The position numbers were made by a program, and so were the translations under genes. The notes below the pieces were generated by a model. The model had not been told where the DNA came from, ran no database searches, and saw only the letters and a program-made list of their open reading frames with translations. This document shows positions 44,700-55,300 of a stretch of 64,000 nt of DNA, piece after piece. This stretch comes from Anolis carolinensis (Eukaryota): contig NC_085847.1 of NCBI RefSeq assembly GCF_035594765.1, positions 5,642,001 through 5,706,000 of the forward strand, written 5' to 3'. How positions within the stretch are numbered: position 1 is the stretch's first letter; each line of letters begins with the position of its first letter.

Positions 44700-47600
44700 T
44701 CAGGCGTCCATATAGTCTTCCTCCTCCTCTTCGTCATCATCCTCATCTTCGCTCTCCAGAGAGGACTCCTGGCTGGACGTCTCCAGGATCTCCAGGGCCG
44801 GTTGGCGGAGGGCCTCCTTCTTGACGTTGGCGGCCGACTGGGAGGACAAGATGGCCGACTGGCGGCAGACCATGGCCAACAGGAGAAGAGAGAGATCGGA
44901 AACACAAGGTCAACCACCATCCCGTTCTAGAGGATCCTCGAGTCAGAAGGGACCCCAAGGGACACTCATCTCCCGTTCGGCCATGACACCATTTGACCCC
45001 TCCCAACTGATGGCCTTCCAGCCTCTCTTTGGAGGAAGAGGAAGTATATTCTACCGCTGGACAGCTCTATTTCTTCAAATGAACAAGAGAAGGATGAAAT
45101 ATTTTTTCAAAATACAATTCACAAAATAATCCCATTTCAGAGTAATACTGCAATAATGCTACCCTATTAGAATACTATCATTATATGACAATTTTATAAC
45201 TTTGCAATACCATATCACAACATTACAACATAAAACATTATAATACAATATTAGAATCATGTATTATAATGTACTAATATTATAAAATAAAATGAAATTC
45301 CCTTGTAAAGTCTTGTTATTATATTAATATTATAACAATATATTAATGATATAATAGAGTATTAATATTCTAATAATTCTAACGCCACTCAAAAAAGAAA
45401 TTCCGCCCGAATCCCATTCAAGGCTGTCCATTTTGGAATAGCGACCATCTTGTCCCACCTTGAGCTTCTGCTTGGTTTCCTCGGAGACGCTGCCCTTCGG
45501 GGAGAGGAGGGTGGGGGTCGGCGGGGTCACGGTGATCTCCGGGGGGAACTTGGGGGTCATTGGTGTCAGCGACGAGGAGCTCAAGGAGGGGATGAAGAGC
45601 CTGGGGACCCCGGGAGGGGGGCGGGGCTTTGGCCGCGGGACCCCCTCAACCTTCCCGGGGTCAACCTCTGGGGCCGCGACCCCTAAAGCAGGAAGAAATG
45701 GGTAAATAATAATACAGGAAGTATTGCATTCTGAGATCTCCCAGAATCCCCTTCCCTATTGCTCACCCATCGTGGCGGCAGCCATCTTGGAGGGTGGGTC
45801 CAGCTCCCCTTCCTCTTCCTCCTCTTCTTCCTCCTCTACAAGATAGATAAAATATTTATTTAAAATATAAATAAAATACATTACGATTAAAATACAATAT
45901 AACTAAAATATACTACAATTAAAGTCAAATGCTATATAAATAAAATATATTAAAATATCATATTGAAACACTGCATTAAATATATTACATATAAAATATA
46001 GTAATAGTTAAAATATTATAGAAATAAAATGTAGTATTAAAATACAAATTAAATAGCATGTCATTAAATTAAATATATTACTAAAATAAATGAAATATAG
46101 TTTGAATTGAAATACAGTAGAGTCTCACTTATCCAAGCTAAACGGGCCAGCAGAACCTTGGATAAGCGAATATCTTGGATAATAAGGAGGGATTAAGGAA
46201 AAGCCTATTAGGTTATGATGTTACAAATTAGGTTATGATGTTACAAATTAAGCACCAAAACATCATGTTTTACAACAAATTTGACAGAAAAAGCAGTTCA
46301 ATACGCAGTAATGTGATGTTGTAATGACTGTATTTACGAATTTAGCACCAAAATATCACGATATATTGAAAACATTGACCACAAAAATGGCTTGGATAAT
46401 CCAGAACCTTGGATAAGCGAGACTCTACTGTAGTACATAAATAAATTATAATAGACATACAAAATAGTTACTGGGACATGAGAGAAGCCTCCCACAAAGA
46501 TGGTAAAACATCAAAAAACATCCGGGCAACGTCCCCTGGGCAACGTCCTTGCAGACGGCCAATTCTCTCACTCCAGAAGCAACTCCGGTTGCTCCTGACA
46601 CGAAAAATATATATATATAGTTACTAAGTTAACATACTCTATAAATAAGATATAAACTATATTAAATTATTATACAAATAAAATATAGTATTGTTAAATA
46701 AATACAATATTAATATATTAAATTTGTAAAACATTATATAAATAAAATACAGTACTAAATATTTATATTATCTGCAGGAGCTAAGGTACATCACTTGAAA
46801 AATCAATAAAGTACACAATAACCTGGTTTCATGGTGCAAATATATAAATATAATGTATATAAACAAAACAAAACATACAAATAAATCAAAATATATAAAC
46901 AAACTAAAATATATAAAATAAAACAAATATACAAATAACACAAAATATATGAATATACAAATCAAACAATAAAATCATAAACTATATAAAACTATGAATA
47001 AAACAATAGCATAAATAAAACAAAATACAGTAAATATGTAAATAAAATAAAGTATATATATGGAACTTAAACAAAATGTATAAAGAAAATATAAAACAGA
47101 ATAAAATATACAACCAAAATATTCCAATCCAATCCTATAAATGAAATAAGAAACTTTCTCCCAAAATTCAAGAAATACTATTTTTTTCATTTATTTCCCT
47201 TTTAAAAACCTTTCAATGAAAATGCAAATGTGTGACAACAACAAAAACCCTCTATTTGCATGAAAAAATAAATCACAAACAGCAAATCTGAATCTATCTC
47301 TTATTACCTAAAGTAATATATCCATGAATGAACCATGAAAATAATAATCCATGATATTATAACCCTTCTCCTTTATCTACCTTTCTTCCTCCTTCTTCCC
47401 TTTCCTTTCGAAGCAAATAAACATAAAAATAAATAAATATAATGCTCCTCGTTGGCTCCCGTTTCCATGGCAACCCTCTCTCCCTCGTTATGCAAGAGAT
47501 GGGCAGACACACACACCCACACACACAAAGATAAATAGATAAATATAAAACGTACGTGTATCTAAATCATATACACTCCTTTAGGTATACAAATATATTT

Positions 47601-49310
47601 ATAATTTTAATTTTTAATATTTATACATGTGTATATATACATATGTATATGACTACATGCCTTTGTTTAATCTCTGTTTCATATATTTTAATACTTATTT
47701 TATAGAAATACATTTTAATATGTGTGATTGTGGAATTTTTACAATGTTGATGTGTTTTAATTATTCTCTGTAACCCACCTCAAGCCACAAGGAGAGGCTG
47801 GTAAGAAATAAAATTCTCATTACTATCACTATTATTATATTTTCTATATTTCTATATTTATGTGTATTTTTAAATTTTACTGATAGAGGTTTATATTTAT
47901 ACATTAAATATATATACAGTACAGTCTCGCTTATCCAACATAAACGGGCCGGCAGAATGTTGGATAAGCGAATATGTTGGATAATAAGGAGGGATTAAGG
48001 AAAAGCCTATTAAACATCCAATGAGGTTATGATTTTACAAATTAAGCACCAAAACATCATGTTATACATCAAATTTGACAGAAAAAGTAGTTCAATACGC
48101 AGTAATGCTATGTAGTAATTCCTGTATTTACAAATTTAGCACCAAAATATCACAATGTATTGAAATCATTGACTACAAAAATGTGTTGGATAATCCAGAA
48201 CGTTGGATAAGCGAATGTTGGATAAGTGAGACTCTACTGTACATATACACATTAATGTGTATATATATATTTGTATATGCATTTATATGTACATATTATC
48301 AATATTTAATGTTTGTAGATTTATATATGTATTCTATTATTGTTACAGTGTATTATTCTTATCTTGTACTGTATTAATATACAAAATAATAATAATAACA
48401 ATCATATATTACAATATAATGTAATACATATTATATCATTAGAACATTGCATTGTTATGCTATATTGTATTATATTACTGTGTTATAATATTAATATGAT
48501 GATGATGATGATGATGATAATGGTTGGTTCGTCTTACCTCTTTGGTCGCCAATGGAGGGCTTGGTGCTGGACGAAGCAGCCGCCTCAGGCGTCCGGGGGG
48601 TGGGGGTCGGCAGCAGGAGCAACAAAGGGGTCGGGGTCATGGCTGGGGTCGGGGTGGCCATCTTGCTCTCCTTGGGGGCCCGGGGGTCGGAGGTCATCAA
48701 AGGGGTCGACATCAGGGGGAGGGTGCCCTCCTTGGGGGGCTTCGGGGCGGAAGGGGTCTCCCCCATATTCTGTGGAAAACAGCAGGAAGTGGGTGGATCT
48801 CCAAGAGGAAGTGGGTGGGTCTCCAAGAGGAAGTGGGGGCTCCACTCACCTGTTTCTGGGCGGCGGCTCCAACATGGACCTGGCAGAACTTCACCGCTTG
48901 CTCCAGAGCAGCCTCCTCATCCACCTCGAGAAGATAAACATACATTGTGATATGTTATAAATTAAAATGTAATATCAATATGTTATATACATCATAATGC
49001 AATAAAATATAATAATATACATATACATTATGATGCAATTTAAATTAAACATTTATTATAATATAACTATAGATGAATGACAATGTGTAACTCATAATGT
49101 GCACCTTGCTTATCCGCTATTGCAACCTCATTGTTTTTAATTCGATGTTTTAATACCACGTTGTGTTTTTTCGGTTACTGTGTATATATCACGATTGGTT
49201 TTTGTTATTGTTCTTTGCTGTTTCATATTGTATCATTGTTTTGTATCTGATTTTGCTGTAAGCCGCCCCGAGTCCCCTTCGGGGGAGATGGAGGCGGGAT
49301 ATAAATAAAC

Positions 49311-49359
<49 letters not shown>

Positions 49360-52300
49360 GTGTCACAGAAACAAAGTGGCCACCACATGGGAGGACCCCC
49401 GGAGGCCACGGTGACACATGAGCTGGGCTTTGGAAGGGCATTTCGGAGGCCTTTTTTGTTGTGCCTCCCTTGAAGCCGGGGCTCACCTGCTTGATCAGCA
49501 TGTAGGTCTCGGACATGATCTTCTCAATCCTGCCCAGGTCATAGGTCACGACCTTCTGTCCCTGCTGCCAGACCCGGTAGGCGTCCAGGAGCAGCCTCTT
49601 CCCGGACTCCGGGTCCTGCGTCAGCTTCCGCTTCCGGGTCGCCCTCGGGGCCATTGTTGGAACAGGAAGTCGAGAGCTGATGCTCAGCTCCTCAAGAGAA
49701 AGCTCCGGGGTCCGGACCTCCATGTCCATCGCCTCGGTGGCCATTTTGGAAGGGGGCGGGGCCATCTCGACGGTCATCCTATGTTCTTCTTCGGCCGAGG
49801 GCTCAGCGACCTTCTTGTCCCCCCCGCAAGGGTCGTCGGAGTCCTGAGAAAAGGGGTGGGTTGAGTCGGGAGGAGCCCGTTTGTGTGACCCCTCACCCCC
49901 TGAAATATCAGTGACCTCTGACCTCTGTGATGTCGTTCAGCATCTCCTCGAGGGCCAGGACGGTGAGGGCAAAGGCGTGCTGGGCCAGGACTTGCCGGTC
50001 GGCATCCCGGAGGTACTTCCTGTTGGAAGGAAAATAGGAAGTGGCGTTTATGAGGAACAAAATATATACATATACAGCAGAGTCTCACTTATCCAAGGTA
50101 AATGGGCCGGCAGAACCTTGGATAAGCGAATATGTTGGATAATAAGGAGGGATTAAGGAAAAGCATATTAAACATCAAATGAGGTTGATTTTACAAATTA
50201 AGCACCAAAACATCATGTTATACAACAAACTTGGCAGAAAAAGTAGTTCAATATGCAGTAATGTTATGTTGTAATTACTGTATTTACGAATTTAGCACCA
50301 AAATATCATGATATATTGAAAACATTGACTACAAAAATGGCTTGGATAATCCAAAGGCTTGGATAAGCGAGGCTTGGAGAAGTGAGACTCTACTGTATAT
50401 GTATATGTGTATATCAATATCTTGAATCCCACACAATCTCTTTCCCAAAATCACTCCTGAACCCATTCTATTTTGGAAACAAATGTATGTGTGTCATGCA
50501 TATACAGAGATATCCAGTATTTTTGTATACATACATATAAAGGTTGGTAAAAGTAAAGGTTTTCCCCTGATGATAAGTCCAGTCGTGACTGACTCTAAGG
50601 GTTGGTGCTCATCTCCATTTCTAGGCCAAAGAGCTGGCGTTGTCCGTAGACACCTCCAAGGTCATGTGGCCGGCATGACTGCATGGAGCGCCAGGGTTAC
50701 CTTCCCGCCGGAGCGGTATCTAGTGATCTACTCACATTGGCATGTTTTCGAACTGCTAGGTTGGCAGAAGCTGGGACTAACAGCGAGCACTCATTCCGCT
50801 CCCGGGATTTGAACCAGGGACCTTTCGGTCTGCAAGTTCAGCAGCTCAGTGCTTTAACACACTGCGCCACCACCAGGGGCCCTACATACATATATATACA
50901 CACACACATATATCTATACATAGAAAATAAATGTGTATAGATAAAATAATAAAATACAAGAATATGAATTGGAATAATAAAATTTGACAATATAGTATAT
51001 AGACACACACAGCCTCTGGGACTCACTTTCCCTGGTCGGGGGTCCTCTGTAGCATGGAGCAGACCTTGAGGAGGGTTCCGTGGTCCTTCAGTTGCGAAAG
51101 GACCTCCAGGAGGAGGACGATGGAGCGGTTCATGTGCCACGAAAAGCTCCCCGGGCGGTCAATCTCATCCACCGGGATGCGCCAGATGCCCTGCGACCCC
51201 AGGAAGGGAAGCGGGAAGTCAGCTCAGGGACTCCTTTGGGCCTTTTCTGAGGTAAAGAGGGGTTGGGTTTTTTTGAAAAATCCTTCCCCCTTTGGCCTTT
51301 TCTGAGGGAAAACCTGCCTCCTTTTGGGCTTTTCTTAGGTACAGGGGGCCTCCTTTGGCCTTTCCTGAGGGAAAAGATGCATTTTCTGAGGGAAGACCTG
51401 CCTCCTTTGGCCTTTTCTGGGGTAAAAACGGCCTCCTTTGGCCTCTCCTGAGGGAAACCCACCCCCTTTGGCCTTTTCTGACACACAATGCCACTTCAGG
51501 TAACTTATTTTTCCTGATGATAAATATTATTTACAGCCACTTTGAAATACAGTAGAGTCTCACTTATCCAAGCTAAATGGGCTGGCAGAAGCTTGGATAA
51601 GCAAATATCTTGGATAATAAGGAGGGATTAAGGAAAAGCCTATTAAACATCAAATTAGGTTATGATTTTACAAATTAAGCACCAAAACATCATGTTATAC
51701 AACAAACTTGACAGAAAAAGTAGTTCAATACGCAGTAATGCTATGTAGTAATTACTGTATTTGCAAATTTAGCACCAAAATATCACGATATATTGAAAAC
51801 ATTGACTACAAAAATGGCTTGGATAATCCAGAAGCTTGGATAAGCGAGGTTTGGATAAGTGAGACTCTACTGTACATATATTCTTGATAGATATCTATCA
51901 ATTAATATCCATACTGATATTTTTTACACACCTCATGCGCTATATGTTGTATATACATCCATATACATAAAATCAGAACACAGATATAAAGAATCACAGA
52001 ATCGTAGAGTTGGAAGAGACCTCACAGGTCAGTCCAACCCCCTGCAAGAAGCAGGAAAATCTATTTACTTAAATATTTACTAATATTAATTAGTAAATAT
52101 TAAGCAACTACAGTACTTACTTAAATATTTATGGGCATGATAAATACATTTAGTTTATAAACACATATATGCACCACATACACACACCCCCTATATATAT
52201 TTGCCCTTTGTATAGTTAGTGCATAGATACACATTTTTAAAATACTATATCCAATATATTTATAATATATTTATTTCTCTTGCTGTTCTATATATTATAC

Positions 52301-55300
52301 ACCAATCGTGAGGAGAAAACCAAGGCCACTGAGGGCCCTTCCACACAGAGACCCCAAGATCGGTTTTGAACCAGGTTTCCTGAGTCCACACTGTCATATA
52401 TCCCAGTTCAAAGCAGACAATGTGGGCTGTGATCTAGCTGTGTGGAAGGGACCTGAGAGGACTTCTCAGCAGCATATCCCGAAATGCAAAGGGATGAGGG
52501 AAACCGGAAGGAAGGGAGGAATAAAAGGAGGGGCTTAGGCGTCCCCAGCCCCTTCCCAGTACTCCCATTCCCTCCCAGTCTGCCCAGTTCGCTTCCTGCC
52601 TCACCATGACGGCCCCAAGCCGCCTCCTCCTCCGCCTCCGCCGCCTCTTCTAGCACCTCCCTCGAAGCCCCGCCCACCGCCAGGGCCCGCCCAATCACAG
52701 CGAGGGAAGGAGGAGCAGGCCGGGGCTTCCCTCCCCCGGGACTCCAATTCCCAGAGTTCCTCGCCATTGGGCGCATCAGCGGGGGCTTCGGGGAGATGGA
52801 GGCGATGGAGGGGCGGGGCGAAGGGCGCGGCCTCTCTCCTTCGGCCCCGCCCACTGCTGTCGATAGAGAAACAAGGGGCGAGGCCTCCTCTCCCAGAGCA
52901 GGGAGGGGCGGGGCTAAGGAGAGCCCGCGTTCTGCGCATGCCCCAATGACAAAGAGAGAGGGGAGAATTAGAGCAGGAGGAGGAAGAAGGCCTGCCTTCT
53001 GCGCATGTCCAGACAGTGCCTGAGAAGTATCTCTCTCAGGAATATAAAAACAATGGAATACAATTTAAAAGATACAAACCATAAGAATAATCAAACAAGA
53101 AGTGCAATATAAAATAAACAACAACAAATACAGTAGCGTCTCACTTATCCAACATAAACAGGCCGGCAGAATGTTAGATAAATGAATATGTTGGATAATA
53201 AGGAGAGATTAAGAAAAAAACCTATTAAACATCAAAATAGGTTATGATTTTACAAATTAAGCCCCAAAACATCATGTTATACAACAAATTTGACAGAAAA
53301 AGTAGTTCATTACACATTAATTCTATGTAGTAATTATTACTGTATTTACGAATTTAGCACCAAAGTATCATGATATATTGAAAACATTGACTACAAAAAT
53401 GGCTTGGATAATCCAGAACGTTGGATAAGTGAGACTCTACTGTAATCATAAACAGAACATATACAGTAGGAAATAAATATACAAATAATAAAAATAAAAT
53501 AATCATGATAAATAGAATATAAAGTATACAAAGTACAGTGTTCCCTCACTACTTTGCGGTTCACTTTTAGCGGATTTGCTGTTTTGTGGTTTTTCAATGA
53601 ACTCTAAAAGACTATAATAAATCATAAAAAACGACAATTTCCATCCTAAGGAAGGGAGGAAGGAGAAGCCAAAGGGAGAGAAAAGGAGCCCAAGCGGCAA
53701 CAAGAGGAGAAGGAGGCAATTTATCAACACATGACTGGTTGATAAAGACTTAAAATAGTGTGTAACTACTAAAATAATGTATAAATATTAAAATAAATAT
53801 AGCTTCCCTACTTTGTGGATTTTCACTTTTGGTGGGTGGTCCTGGAACCTAACCCCAGCAATAAGTGAGGGAACACTGTATTGAAGATGATAGAATATGA
53901 AATAGCCAAACCACAATGATAGGAAAAGAATAGAAATGGAATAGCAAAGAATGTGAAGTAGGCACATCCAAATCCTCCTACTAAGGCTCCTGCTCACGTT
54001 GAAGAAGTTGGTCTTGTTCCGCTCGCAGAAGAGGCCCTGGGCCGGCATGTGGGGCAGCTGGGTCCACGGCAGGGGGGTGCCCAGGAGCACGTCCCGGGCC
54101 CAGAGGAGGTTCTGCAAGGCAGGAGAGGGCCAGGGTCACCCCATGTGACCCCACCTTCTGCCCCTCCCCTTGTGGACCCCCTCCTCTCTCTGCACCCGAG
54201 ACCCTTCCCCCCCTTCCCACTATGGGGTCCCCCTAACCCCATGGACCCCCATATGGCCCTCTCTGGGCCCTCCTCTCCCCCCCTTTCCCATCGCTCCCCC
54301 GACTGCCAGGTGACCCTTCCCGCCCCCTCTCCCCGTGAGTGACCCCGTTGCTGACCTTGTGGGCGGGGCCATAGGCGTAGAGGGCGGCCAGGCGGTAGAG
54401 GCTCTTGTAGTGCTGGGGGAAGCGGGAGAGGCAGAGGCGCAGGGCCCCCACGCACAGGGCCCACACCCGGCCCACCGGGTCTGCAGGGAGGAGCGGCAGG
54501 GCAGGGGCAGGGGGAGGCTTCTGGGCTGGGGGCTCCGACGGGGGACCCTCGGGCTTCCCTGCAGAGGGGGAGGAGGAGGAGAAGACCTTGTCATAAGGAT
54601 ACACAGAGAAAGAGAGAGATGGAGAGAGATACCACGATGGATGGAGAAGGGAGAAGGAAGGCCTGCCGTGGGCTCTCTCCTCGGGGCAATCCCTACCCCT
54701 TTCCTCCTCGGCCAGGGGGGTGGCGCTGGGTCCCTCCGAGGAGGCGGCGGCAGGTCCCGCAAAGACGTCTTGCGTCGAGTTCGAATCCGAGAGAACAACC
54801 GCCCCGTTGCTGTCCTGGCTCCGTTCTGCAGCGGAACAGAAATTAGAGGGAAAATAATACGGGATAACCATTGAAATATCATGTTAAGCTATATATGGCG
54901 AAAGGAAAAACACTCCAGAGGTTTCCAGAATTGTTTTTTTTTTAAAAAGAAGCAGGGAAAGAAGATGGCGGTTCAACCGGAGTGATAGGAAGAACATTCC
55001 GGAAGCTTCTTGAATATCATTTTAAAATTATATTATGAAATACCATTGCTTATTATATATTACATTAATGTTAAATATACAAAATCAATACAAAATATAA
55101 ATAAATAAATAAATATACAATATTCCAAGAGCTTCCAGAATGTAATTTTCATATCATTTCAAAATTTTAATTATGACAATTGCAGTGGAAAGCAAACAAA
55201 GCAGGGAATGCAAGATGGAGGCTCGATCAGAGCGAAAGGAAGAACATTCCGGAAGCTTCCGGAATATCAATTTATGTTTATAATATTATAAATAAATACA

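What the first reader, a model, noticed from the sequence alone, without database searches (positions are those of the whole stretch)
52540..53010. Internal promoter predicts a short CABIN1 isoform containing only the C-terminal calcineurin/MEF2-binding part
Seen: a CpG island in intron 53997-51191 with two NRF1-like sites, several GC and CCAAT boxes, and a minus-strand exon ending GCCGTC-ATG|GTGAGG. The next exon (51190) starts in phase 0 with GGC, giving a strong Kozak context (G at -3, G at +4) and an open frame [15 protein letters not shown]…PEITVT…EETKQKLK…YMDA* of ~459 aa. Established: the N-terminal TPR-rich part of CABIN1 serves the HIRA/H3.3 chaperone complex, while the C-terminus docks on calcineurin and MEF2. 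Inference: one locus makes two separately regulated products, uncoupling signalling inhibition from chromatin assembly. A comparable short transcript may already be annotated in mammals; if so, this shows deep conservation rather than novelty.
Basis: partly seen in the sequence, partly recalled or inferred. Interest (0 to 1): 0.7.

Follow-up and report, generated by a model that had tools for sequence, protein, structure and literature searches.

The report
Lizard start exon for short CABIN1
Inside an intron of a lizard's CABIN1 gene lies a promoter-like stretch ending in a lone start codon, which likely launches a 459-residue short protein; database proteins from fish, snakes and a bird start the same way and a human short form is already known to dampen calcium signalling, so this is likely an old second product of the gene rather than a new kind of thing.

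Summary
Observation confirmed; the isoform is known in human. An anole CABIN1 intron holds a GC/CCAAT/NRF1-like motif cluster ending ATG|GTGAGG; joined to the last eight exons it gives an open 459-aa frame. Of 171 database CABIN1 proteins holding the next exon's start, 34 have Met directly before GIWRIP (teleosts, snakes, a bird, unnamed transcript contigs) and 20 mammalian ones start MPRxSxR, including human B5MEB3. PMC9075502 calls B5MEB3 the low-molecular-weight isoform and shows it represses NFAT and MEF2 reporters. The lizard junction itself was not shown here. Correction: the short form is not only the calcineurin/MEF2 tail. It keeps a conserved six-helix part whose best natural structural match is the end of fungal Hir3 (Z 8.6, a middling score). 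It lacks the HIRA-binding head, so uncoupling from chromatin assembly is likely but untested. This scan already noted the same exon in a cartilaginous fish (e1-9518455). A second salmonid gene copy may have kept only the short form (lead). Verdict: new member of a known isoform, interest 0.42.

The parts
52600..53020 (-). Promoter-like GC-rich island inside CABIN1 intron 53997-51191 (TATA-less; 5 GC boxes, 4 CCAAT boxes, 2 NRF1-like sites)
   Evidence: function as promoter inferred
53000..53011 (.). NRF1-like site 1 (10 of 12 to the recalled consensus)
52933..52944 (.). NRF1-like site 2 (10 of 12 to the recalled consensus)
52739..52801 (.). Decayed inverted-repeat element inside the island; carries one CCAAT box and a ZNF143-like motif (motif name recalled)
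   Evidence: 79-84% matches at three other genomic places
52670..52695 (-). Proximal CCAAT box and two GC boxes; start site predicted just downstream (about 52670-52640, a guess)
   Evidence: start site not measured
52605..52607 (-). ATG, the only coding bases of the predicted first exon; context GTC ATG|G; in-frame TAG at 52652-52650
   Evidence: Met directly before GIWRIP in 34 database proteins
52599..52604 (-). Splice donor GTGAGG
53998..54111 (-). Last exon private to full-length CABIN1 (NLLWARD...TNFFN), ends in phase 0
   Evidence: contigs of runs X8 and X9 join it to 51190
51027..51190 (-). Shared exon 1 (GIWRIP...DQGK): start of the conserved helical part
49923..50019 (-). Shared exon 2 (third helix)
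   Evidence: loose-end sequence of X8 and X9 contigs at 51026
49487..49843 (-). Shared exon 3 (variable linker, then second helical block)
48850..48924 (-). Shared exon 4 (end of second helical block)
48538..48769 (-). Shared exon 5 (Pro/Thr-rich, poorly conserved)
45767..45835 (-). Shared exon 6 (acidic)
45459..45682 (-). Shared exon 7: PEITVT (PxIxIT-type calcineurin docking motif, isoform residues 380-385) and first half of the MEF2-binding helix
   Evidence: PF09047
44700..44858 (-). Last coding exon: rest of MEF2-binding segment, acidic tail, stop

Best explanation
The intron holds a promoter-like motif cluster and an ATG followed by a splice donor, which likely act as a second promoter and first exon making a 459-residue C-terminal CABIN1, the likely lizard counterpart of the human low-molecular-weight isoform B5MEB3. 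Steps: (1, shown) motif cluster, ATG|GT, phase match, open frame. (2, inferred from orthologues) RNA polymerase II starts near 52670-52640 and the exon splices to 51190, supplying only Met. (3, shown in sequence) the product keeps PEITVT and the MEF2-binding helix and lacks the first 1504 residues. (4, shown for the human isoform in PMC9075502, inferred for lizard) it binds calcineurin, calmodulin and SIN3A and lowers NFAT and MEF2 output. (5, inferred from PMC13228460) without the head and shoulder that hold the HIRA trimers and the 380-420 loop that grips the nucleosome acidic patch, it would not join the HIRA complex. (6, predicted) it keeps a six-helix unit resembling the far end of the Hir3 solenoid, role untested.
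For: Motif enrichment and open frame. Among 232 proteins held, 171 contain the start of the acceptor exon: 56 have the canonical upstream exon, 28 Met alone, 6 end in Met, 20 MPRxSxR, 44 end in Q/K/E (compatible with reading in from the intron), 12 other, 5 none (the set was enriched on purpose for short forms, so these are not frequencies). Named Met forms: Notechis, stickleback, Lates, Nothobranchius, Eleginops, Oncorhynchus, goodeids, Astyanax, Junco. Ten unnamed Logan proteins of 587-606 aa starting MGIWRIP lie on contigs of 2.1-3.7 kb, so they are likely spliced transcripts; ATG can come neither from the canonical exon (ends Asn) nor from an intron end (AG). Val-Met before the junction recurs in lizard, Junco, a killifish and an unnamed fish-like entry. 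Human: B5MEB3 and Q9NPU0/DKFZp762G2015; expression and activity reported in PMC9075502. Run X13 (library type not on record) has one unspliced 616-nt contig over 52399-53014 and X4 one over 52604-53022.
Against: The lizard start site and junction remain unshown. Part of the motif cluster comes from a repeat remnant and the CpG o/e is no higher than the window's. No short Anolis model appears among 12 members of the Anolis cluster or the 120 listed hits. One killifish entry (P0203) uses the Met exon internally after a long-form exon. Most mammalian entries are gene models that may be projected from human (my inference), and the human start (MPRRSRR) differs from the Met-only start. [quoted passage not shown] The Hir3 match is middling (Z 8.6, rmsd 4.7, 151 aligned, tied with designed helical proteins and Sec6p) and did not appear with the longer model or by sequence.
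Confidence: 0.82

Rival explanations
1. The element is a vestige or rarely used start in the lizard: the exon is ancestral and active in other vertebrates, but anoles make little or no short protein.
For: No short Anolis protein among cluster members or search hits; modest CpG o/e and a repeat remnant inside the island.
Against: ATG, Kozak context, donor and a dense motif cluster are all intact inside an AT-rich, repeat-filled intron; two snake entries carry the same start.
Confidence: 0.08
2. It is an enhancer or a promoter for an unspliced or antisense RNA; the ATG|GT is incidental.
For: Unspliced contigs run from exon 51190 into the intron (51161 to about 51570) in X8, X9 and X10; X14 has a contig over 52821-53100. 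Contigs give no strand.
Against: Does not explain Met at the same junction in 34 orthologous proteins or the phase match.
Confidence: 0.06
3. The Met exon is an internal cassette of long transcripts rather than a first exon.
For: P0203 (Nothobranchius kuhntae, 1009 aa) reads a long-form exon into a Met-ending exon and then GIWRIP: 1 of the 34 Met forms.
Against: In the lizard an in-frame TAG lies 15 codons before the junction and the sequence between it and the donor is purine-rich, without a pyrimidine tract; 28 entries start at this Met.
Confidence: 0.04

Closest known systems
Human low-molecular-weight CABIN1 isoform, UniProt B5MEB3 (590 aa; also Q9NPU0 / DKFZp762G2015, 589 aa); PMC9075502, sections 22 and 23 part 1 and passages read, figures and supplements not seen
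   Same: Starts at the same exon (GIWRIP), runs to the same C-terminus, keeps PEITVT and PF09047.
   Different: Human first exon encodes MPRRSRR, the lizard's only Met; the lizard protein is about 130 aa shorter (459 vs 590). The passages I saw describe neither the promoter nor conservation. The human DNA could not be examined here.
Full-length CABIN1/cain, subunit of the HIRA complex (PMC13228460: sections 5, 6, 22, figure legends and passages read; PMC2193671: passages read)
   Same: Same gene; identical last 458 residues (P0121).
   Different: Short form lacks residues 1-1504: the N-terminal head and shoulder that bind HIRA trimers and the loop with R392/R396 (human numbering) that binds the nucleosome.
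Fungal Hir3 C-terminal end (Chaetomium thermophilum, PDB 8gix chain E, residues 1527-1793)
   Same: Best natural chain among 48,161 for the folded part of a snake short form: rank 5, Z 8.6, rmsd 4.7, 151 aligned, 11% identity. Hir3 is CABIN1's homologue (PMC13228460).
   Different: Score is in the range of generic helical bundles; no sequence-level match. No separately made C-terminal Hir3 product is known to me (recall).
Short MGIWRIP CABIN1 gene models in teleosts and snakes (e.g. XP_026547992.1, GAA6220827.1, XP_031685986.1, UniProt A0A1A8P304)
   Same: Met alone before GIWRIP.
   Different: Automatic annotations or transcript assemblies, 550-615 aa when complete; none studied in the papers my searches found.

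Membership tests
Short C-terminal CABIN1 isoform (B5MEB3 type) | Alternative 5' end joined to the GIWRIP exon in phase 0 | tested here: met
   ATG|GTGAGG at 52607-52599, phase 0 acceptor at 51190, open frame; met at DNA level only
Short C-terminal CABIN1 isoform (B5MEB3 type) | Keeps PxIxIT-type motif and MEF2-binding segment | tested here: met
   PEITVT at 380-385, PF09047
Short C-terminal CABIN1 isoform (B5MEB3 type) | Spliced transcript from the internal exon exists in this species | tested here: inconclusive
   Only assembled contigs were available; see Tried and rejected
Short C-terminal CABIN1 isoform (B5MEB3 type) | First exon is orthologous to the human one at DNA level | not testable with these tools
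   No vertebrate relatives are held for this genome; only the protein junction can be compared
Short C-terminal CABIN1 isoform (B5MEB3 type) | Protein made; represses NFAT and MEF2 | not testable with these tools
   Reported for human in PMC9075502
TATA-less CpG-island promoter | Over 200 bp, GC over 0.5, CpG o/e over 0.6 (thresholds recalled) | tested here: met
   400 bp, GC 0.70, o/e 0.65; window background o/e 0.63, so barely discriminating
TATA-less CpG-island promoter | Clustered GC, CCAAT and NRF1-type sites, no TATA box | tested here: met
TATA-less CpG-island promoter | Capped starts, H3K4me3, unmethylated DNA | not testable with these tools
   No raw reads or library types on record
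Hir3/CABIN1 solenoid, distal end | Folded part of the short form superposes on the Hir3 C-terminal helices | tested here: inconclusive
   Z 8.6, rmsd 4.7, 151 aligned with the short-form model; not in the top 50 with the 841-aa model; Foldseek no E below 0.001
HIRA complex subunit | N-terminal head and shoulder that bind HIRA trimers | tested here: not met
   Short form lacks residues 1-1504; HIRA core was modelled with CABIN1 1-686 (PMC13228460)

The most novel reading that the evidence does not exclude
Short CABIN1 is an ancient stand-alone vertebrate protein: the far, possibly DNA-contacting tip of the Hir3 solenoid fused to the calcineurin/MEF2 tail, made from its own promoter. It does much of the signalling work credited to 'Cabin1/cain', independent of HIRA, and is useful enough alone that one salmonid gene copy kept it after losing the long form.
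Probability: 0.25. Interest if true: 0.7.

Novelty: new member of a known kind. Interest (0 to 1): 0.42.

Why it matters
CABIN1 has two literatures: a histone-chaperone scaffold and a calcineurin/MEF2 inhibitor. A short product conserved from teleosts to human offers a clean way to separate them: delete the internal promoter and the long form stays; delete the 5' promoter and the short form stays. It also bears on reading old experiments: C-terminal deletions, 3' UTR shRNAs and C-terminal antibodies would hit both forms, N-terminal guides only one (inference). The human isoform appears by accession in 1 paper of the library; searches listed no paper, by title or abstract start, on its promoter or conservation. 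Subscription journals are mostly not held, so this is not proof that none exists.

Tried and rejected
No RNA holder was on record as RNA in the run search. Contigs of X8 and X9 show spliced canonical joints and X10 covers the shared exon on a 1246-nt contig. No 52605-51190 joint was listed in X8, X9, X10 or X14 on 51000-53100 (4 joints listed, all at repeats; X14 does not cover the acceptor exon), 69 joints were not shown. Contigs show presence, not absence, so this is not counted against the isoform. Contig depths are not used as evidence: downstream-exon contigs were deeper than the canonical-joint contigs (X8 71.8 vs 33.1, X9 41.9 vs 17.9) and the X13 island contig deeper than a neighbour (68 vs 3.8), but the tool states depth cannot rank parts of a gene. 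Sequence searches of the PDB found only the 35-residue MEF2-binding peptide 1n6j (one search also two O-GlcNAcase rows at E 0.56, rejected). Foldseek and VIA-align on the 841-aa model gave only generic helical bundles. My first idea, that the short form is a passive MEF2 blocker because SIN3 binds the N-terminus (PMC2193671 introduction), was dropped: PMC9075502 reports SIN3A co-precipitating with B5MEB3. The sigma-70 scan does not apply to a vertebrate. Look-up of earlier findings by place gave nothing. PMC3187368 and PMC11338637 are not held, so the residue limits of the CABIN1 'hand' and Hir3 tail were not read; Fig. 2b and supplements of PMC13228460 and the blots and supplements of PMC9075502 were not seen and bear on the domain boundary and on the size of the second human band.

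Full report
What was checked. The window is from an anole lizard: the acceptor exon is 100% identical to Anolis sagrei CABIN1. CABIN1 runs on the minus strand; its N-terminal exons lie just beyond base 64000. The intron 53997-51191 is AT-rich and repeat-filled except for about 420 bp at 52600-53020. That stretch holds 5 GC boxes, 4 CCAAT boxes and 2 NRF1-like sites, each above dinucleotide shuffles (P 0.008, 0.003 and 0 of 2000; motifs chosen after seeing the sequence, consensus recalled). It ends GCCGTC ATG|GTGAGG. ATG plus the last eight exons gives an open 459-aa frame, matching the last 458 residues of the 1962-aa database protein P0121. An in-frame TAG at 52652-52650 makes this ATG the first usable one. 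The island is modest: CpG o/e 0.65 against 0.63 for the whole window, and 63 bp of it look like a decayed repeat.

Evidence from other species. Searching with the acceptor exon (176 hits, 120 listed) and with the C-terminal region among shorter proteins (235 hits, 120 listed), plus two cluster look-ups, gave 232 proteins, 171 with the start of that exon. What precedes GIWRIP: canonical exon 56, Met alone 28, a stretch ending in Met 6, MPRxSxR 20, Q/K/E 44, other 12, nothing 5. The set was enriched for short forms and is not a frequency. Met cannot come from the canonical exon or an intron end, so it needs a separate exon ending in ATG, as the lizard DNA predicts. Named carriers: tiger snake and a second snake-like entry (97% identical), Junco, stickleback, Lates, killifishes, goodeids, Eleginops, Oncorhynchus, Astyanax. 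Ten unnamed Logan proteins of 587-606 aa lie on 2.1-3.7 kb contigs, likely spliced transcripts; two are about 77% like bat and horse, showing a Met-only start in a mammal-like sequence. Primates, carnivores, bats, horse and musk deer have MPRxSxR, including human B5MEB3 and Q9NPU0; many may be models projected from human (inference). The Notechis model lies on a 9.6 kb contig and is marked partial, which weakens that entry. One of the 34 Met forms uses the exon internally (P0203).

Evidence from this species. Assembled contigs of X8 and X9 show the canonical 53998-51190 joint. Unspliced contigs enter the intron above 51190 in X8, X9 and X10. Run X13, library type not on record, has a single unspliced contig over 52399-53014, and X4 one over 52604-53022. 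The 52605-51190 junction remains unshown; the details are under Tried and rejected.

What is known. [quoted passage not shown] Re-expressed in knock-down cells it lowered NFAT and MEF2 reporter activity and co-precipitated calcineurin, calmodulin and SIN3A. It is the only paper in the library with that accession. PMC2193671 (passages): mice lacking the last 123 residues are healthy with raised T-cell cytokines, a presumed null allele dies near E12.5, SIN3 recruitment is ascribed to the N-terminus, and the Northern blot text mentions one transcript at the expected size. PMC13228460 (preprint; sections 5, 6, 22, legends, passages): CABIN1 head and shoulder hold the HIRA trimers, residues 392/396 bind the acidic patch, lower arm and distal hand bind DNA; the text I saw gives no residue limits for the hand.

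What the short protein contains. Conservation across 20 vertebrate sequences is high at residues 2-80, about 162-222 and 380-440, low between. PEITVT is present in all 21 sequences. AlphaFold2 on a snake short form (P0136, 50 sequences) gives six helices with block pLDDT 88-96 at 17-94 and 258-330, the rest mostly under 60 (mean 56.5); an 841-aa fragment gave the same helices. Against 48,161 chains the best natural match of the short-form model is Chaetomium Hir3 1527-1793 (rank 5, Z 8.6, rmsd 4.7, 151 aligned). Four designed proteins rank above it and Sec6p is tied; the tool warns that such scores may mean only a common arrangement, and the longer model and sequence searches did not find Hir3. 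That the match is to the known homologue, at its C-terminal end, makes chance less likely.

Mechanism and odds. Most likely (0.82) the island is a TATA-less internal promoter whose exon gives Met alone; the product binds calcineurin through PEITVT and MEF2 through the C-terminal helix, and lacking the head would stay out of the HIRA complex. Sequence anatomy is shown; transcription in the lizard, protein function in the lizard and exclusion from HIRA are inferred. Rivals: vestige in anoles (0.08), enhancer or unspliced/antisense RNA (0.06), internal cassette (0.04).

Novelty. The isoform is already in human databases and has been used experimentally, so the lizard case is a new member. Its conservation to teleosts was not listed in searches (titles and abstract starts seen). 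This scan reported the same exon in a cartilaginous fish (e1-9518455), an unreviewed note that I saw after reaching the same reading and do not count as support. New leads here are the Hir3-like helical unit and a salmonid duplicate that may have kept only the short form. Interest 0.42.

Noticed in passing
Proteins P0117, P0152, P0154, P0155, P0156, P0171, P0177 (salmonids): A second salmonid cabin1 copy (GIWHIP variant) is listed almost only as 534-615 aa proteins, three starting M|GIWHIP. The one entry with the upstream exon (P0156) differs from full-length trout CABIN1 at 6 of 35 residues there, against 0-1 of 35 in 12 other ray-finned fish entries, and at 3 of 56 downstream (Fisher P 0.08 for upstream vs downstream). 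It may have kept only the short form after genome duplication. One entry, gene models only.
   Followed up: partly
window 51161-51570: Unspliced contigs run from the acceptor exon into the intron up to a repeat in X8, X9 and X10: retained intron, or RNA from the internal promoter before splicing.
   Followed up: partly
window 52739-52801; L002-L004: Decayed inverted-repeat element inside the island, with relatives elsewhere in the genome; it may have donated a CCAAT box and a ZNF143-like motif.
   Followed up: partly
Protein P0203: A killifish entry reads a long-form exon into the Met-ending exon, skipping the two exons before GIWRIP.
   Followed up: partly
Proteins P0164, P0208-P0218, P0220: Thirteen unnamed Logan proteins of 567-568 aa on 2.4-2.5 kb contigs all begin a few residues into the GIWRIP exon, as expected if assemblies branch at this exon border.
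   Followed up: no
window about 38450-41231 (-): T-box gene just downstream of CABIN1 (PF00907).
   Followed up: partly
window about 27976-36940: MED15 (-, PF21538) and an SH2/SH3 adaptor, CRK/CRKL-like by reading (+, PF00017), start head to head about 700 bp apart across a CpG-rich stretch at 34850-35560.
   Followed up: partly
L005:1195-1290 and 2400-3600: The N-terminal CABIN1 exons lie just beyond the window; a CpG island (o/e 0.8-0.9) 1-2 kb above the first coding exon is the likely main promoter, stronger in CpG but poorer in GC/CCAAT boxes than the internal one.
   Followed up: partly
window 50110-50395, 51551-51875, 53130-53445 and others: Many copies of a roughly 320-bp element with terminal inverted repeats in CABIN1 introns; two flank the internal promoter.
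   Followed up: no
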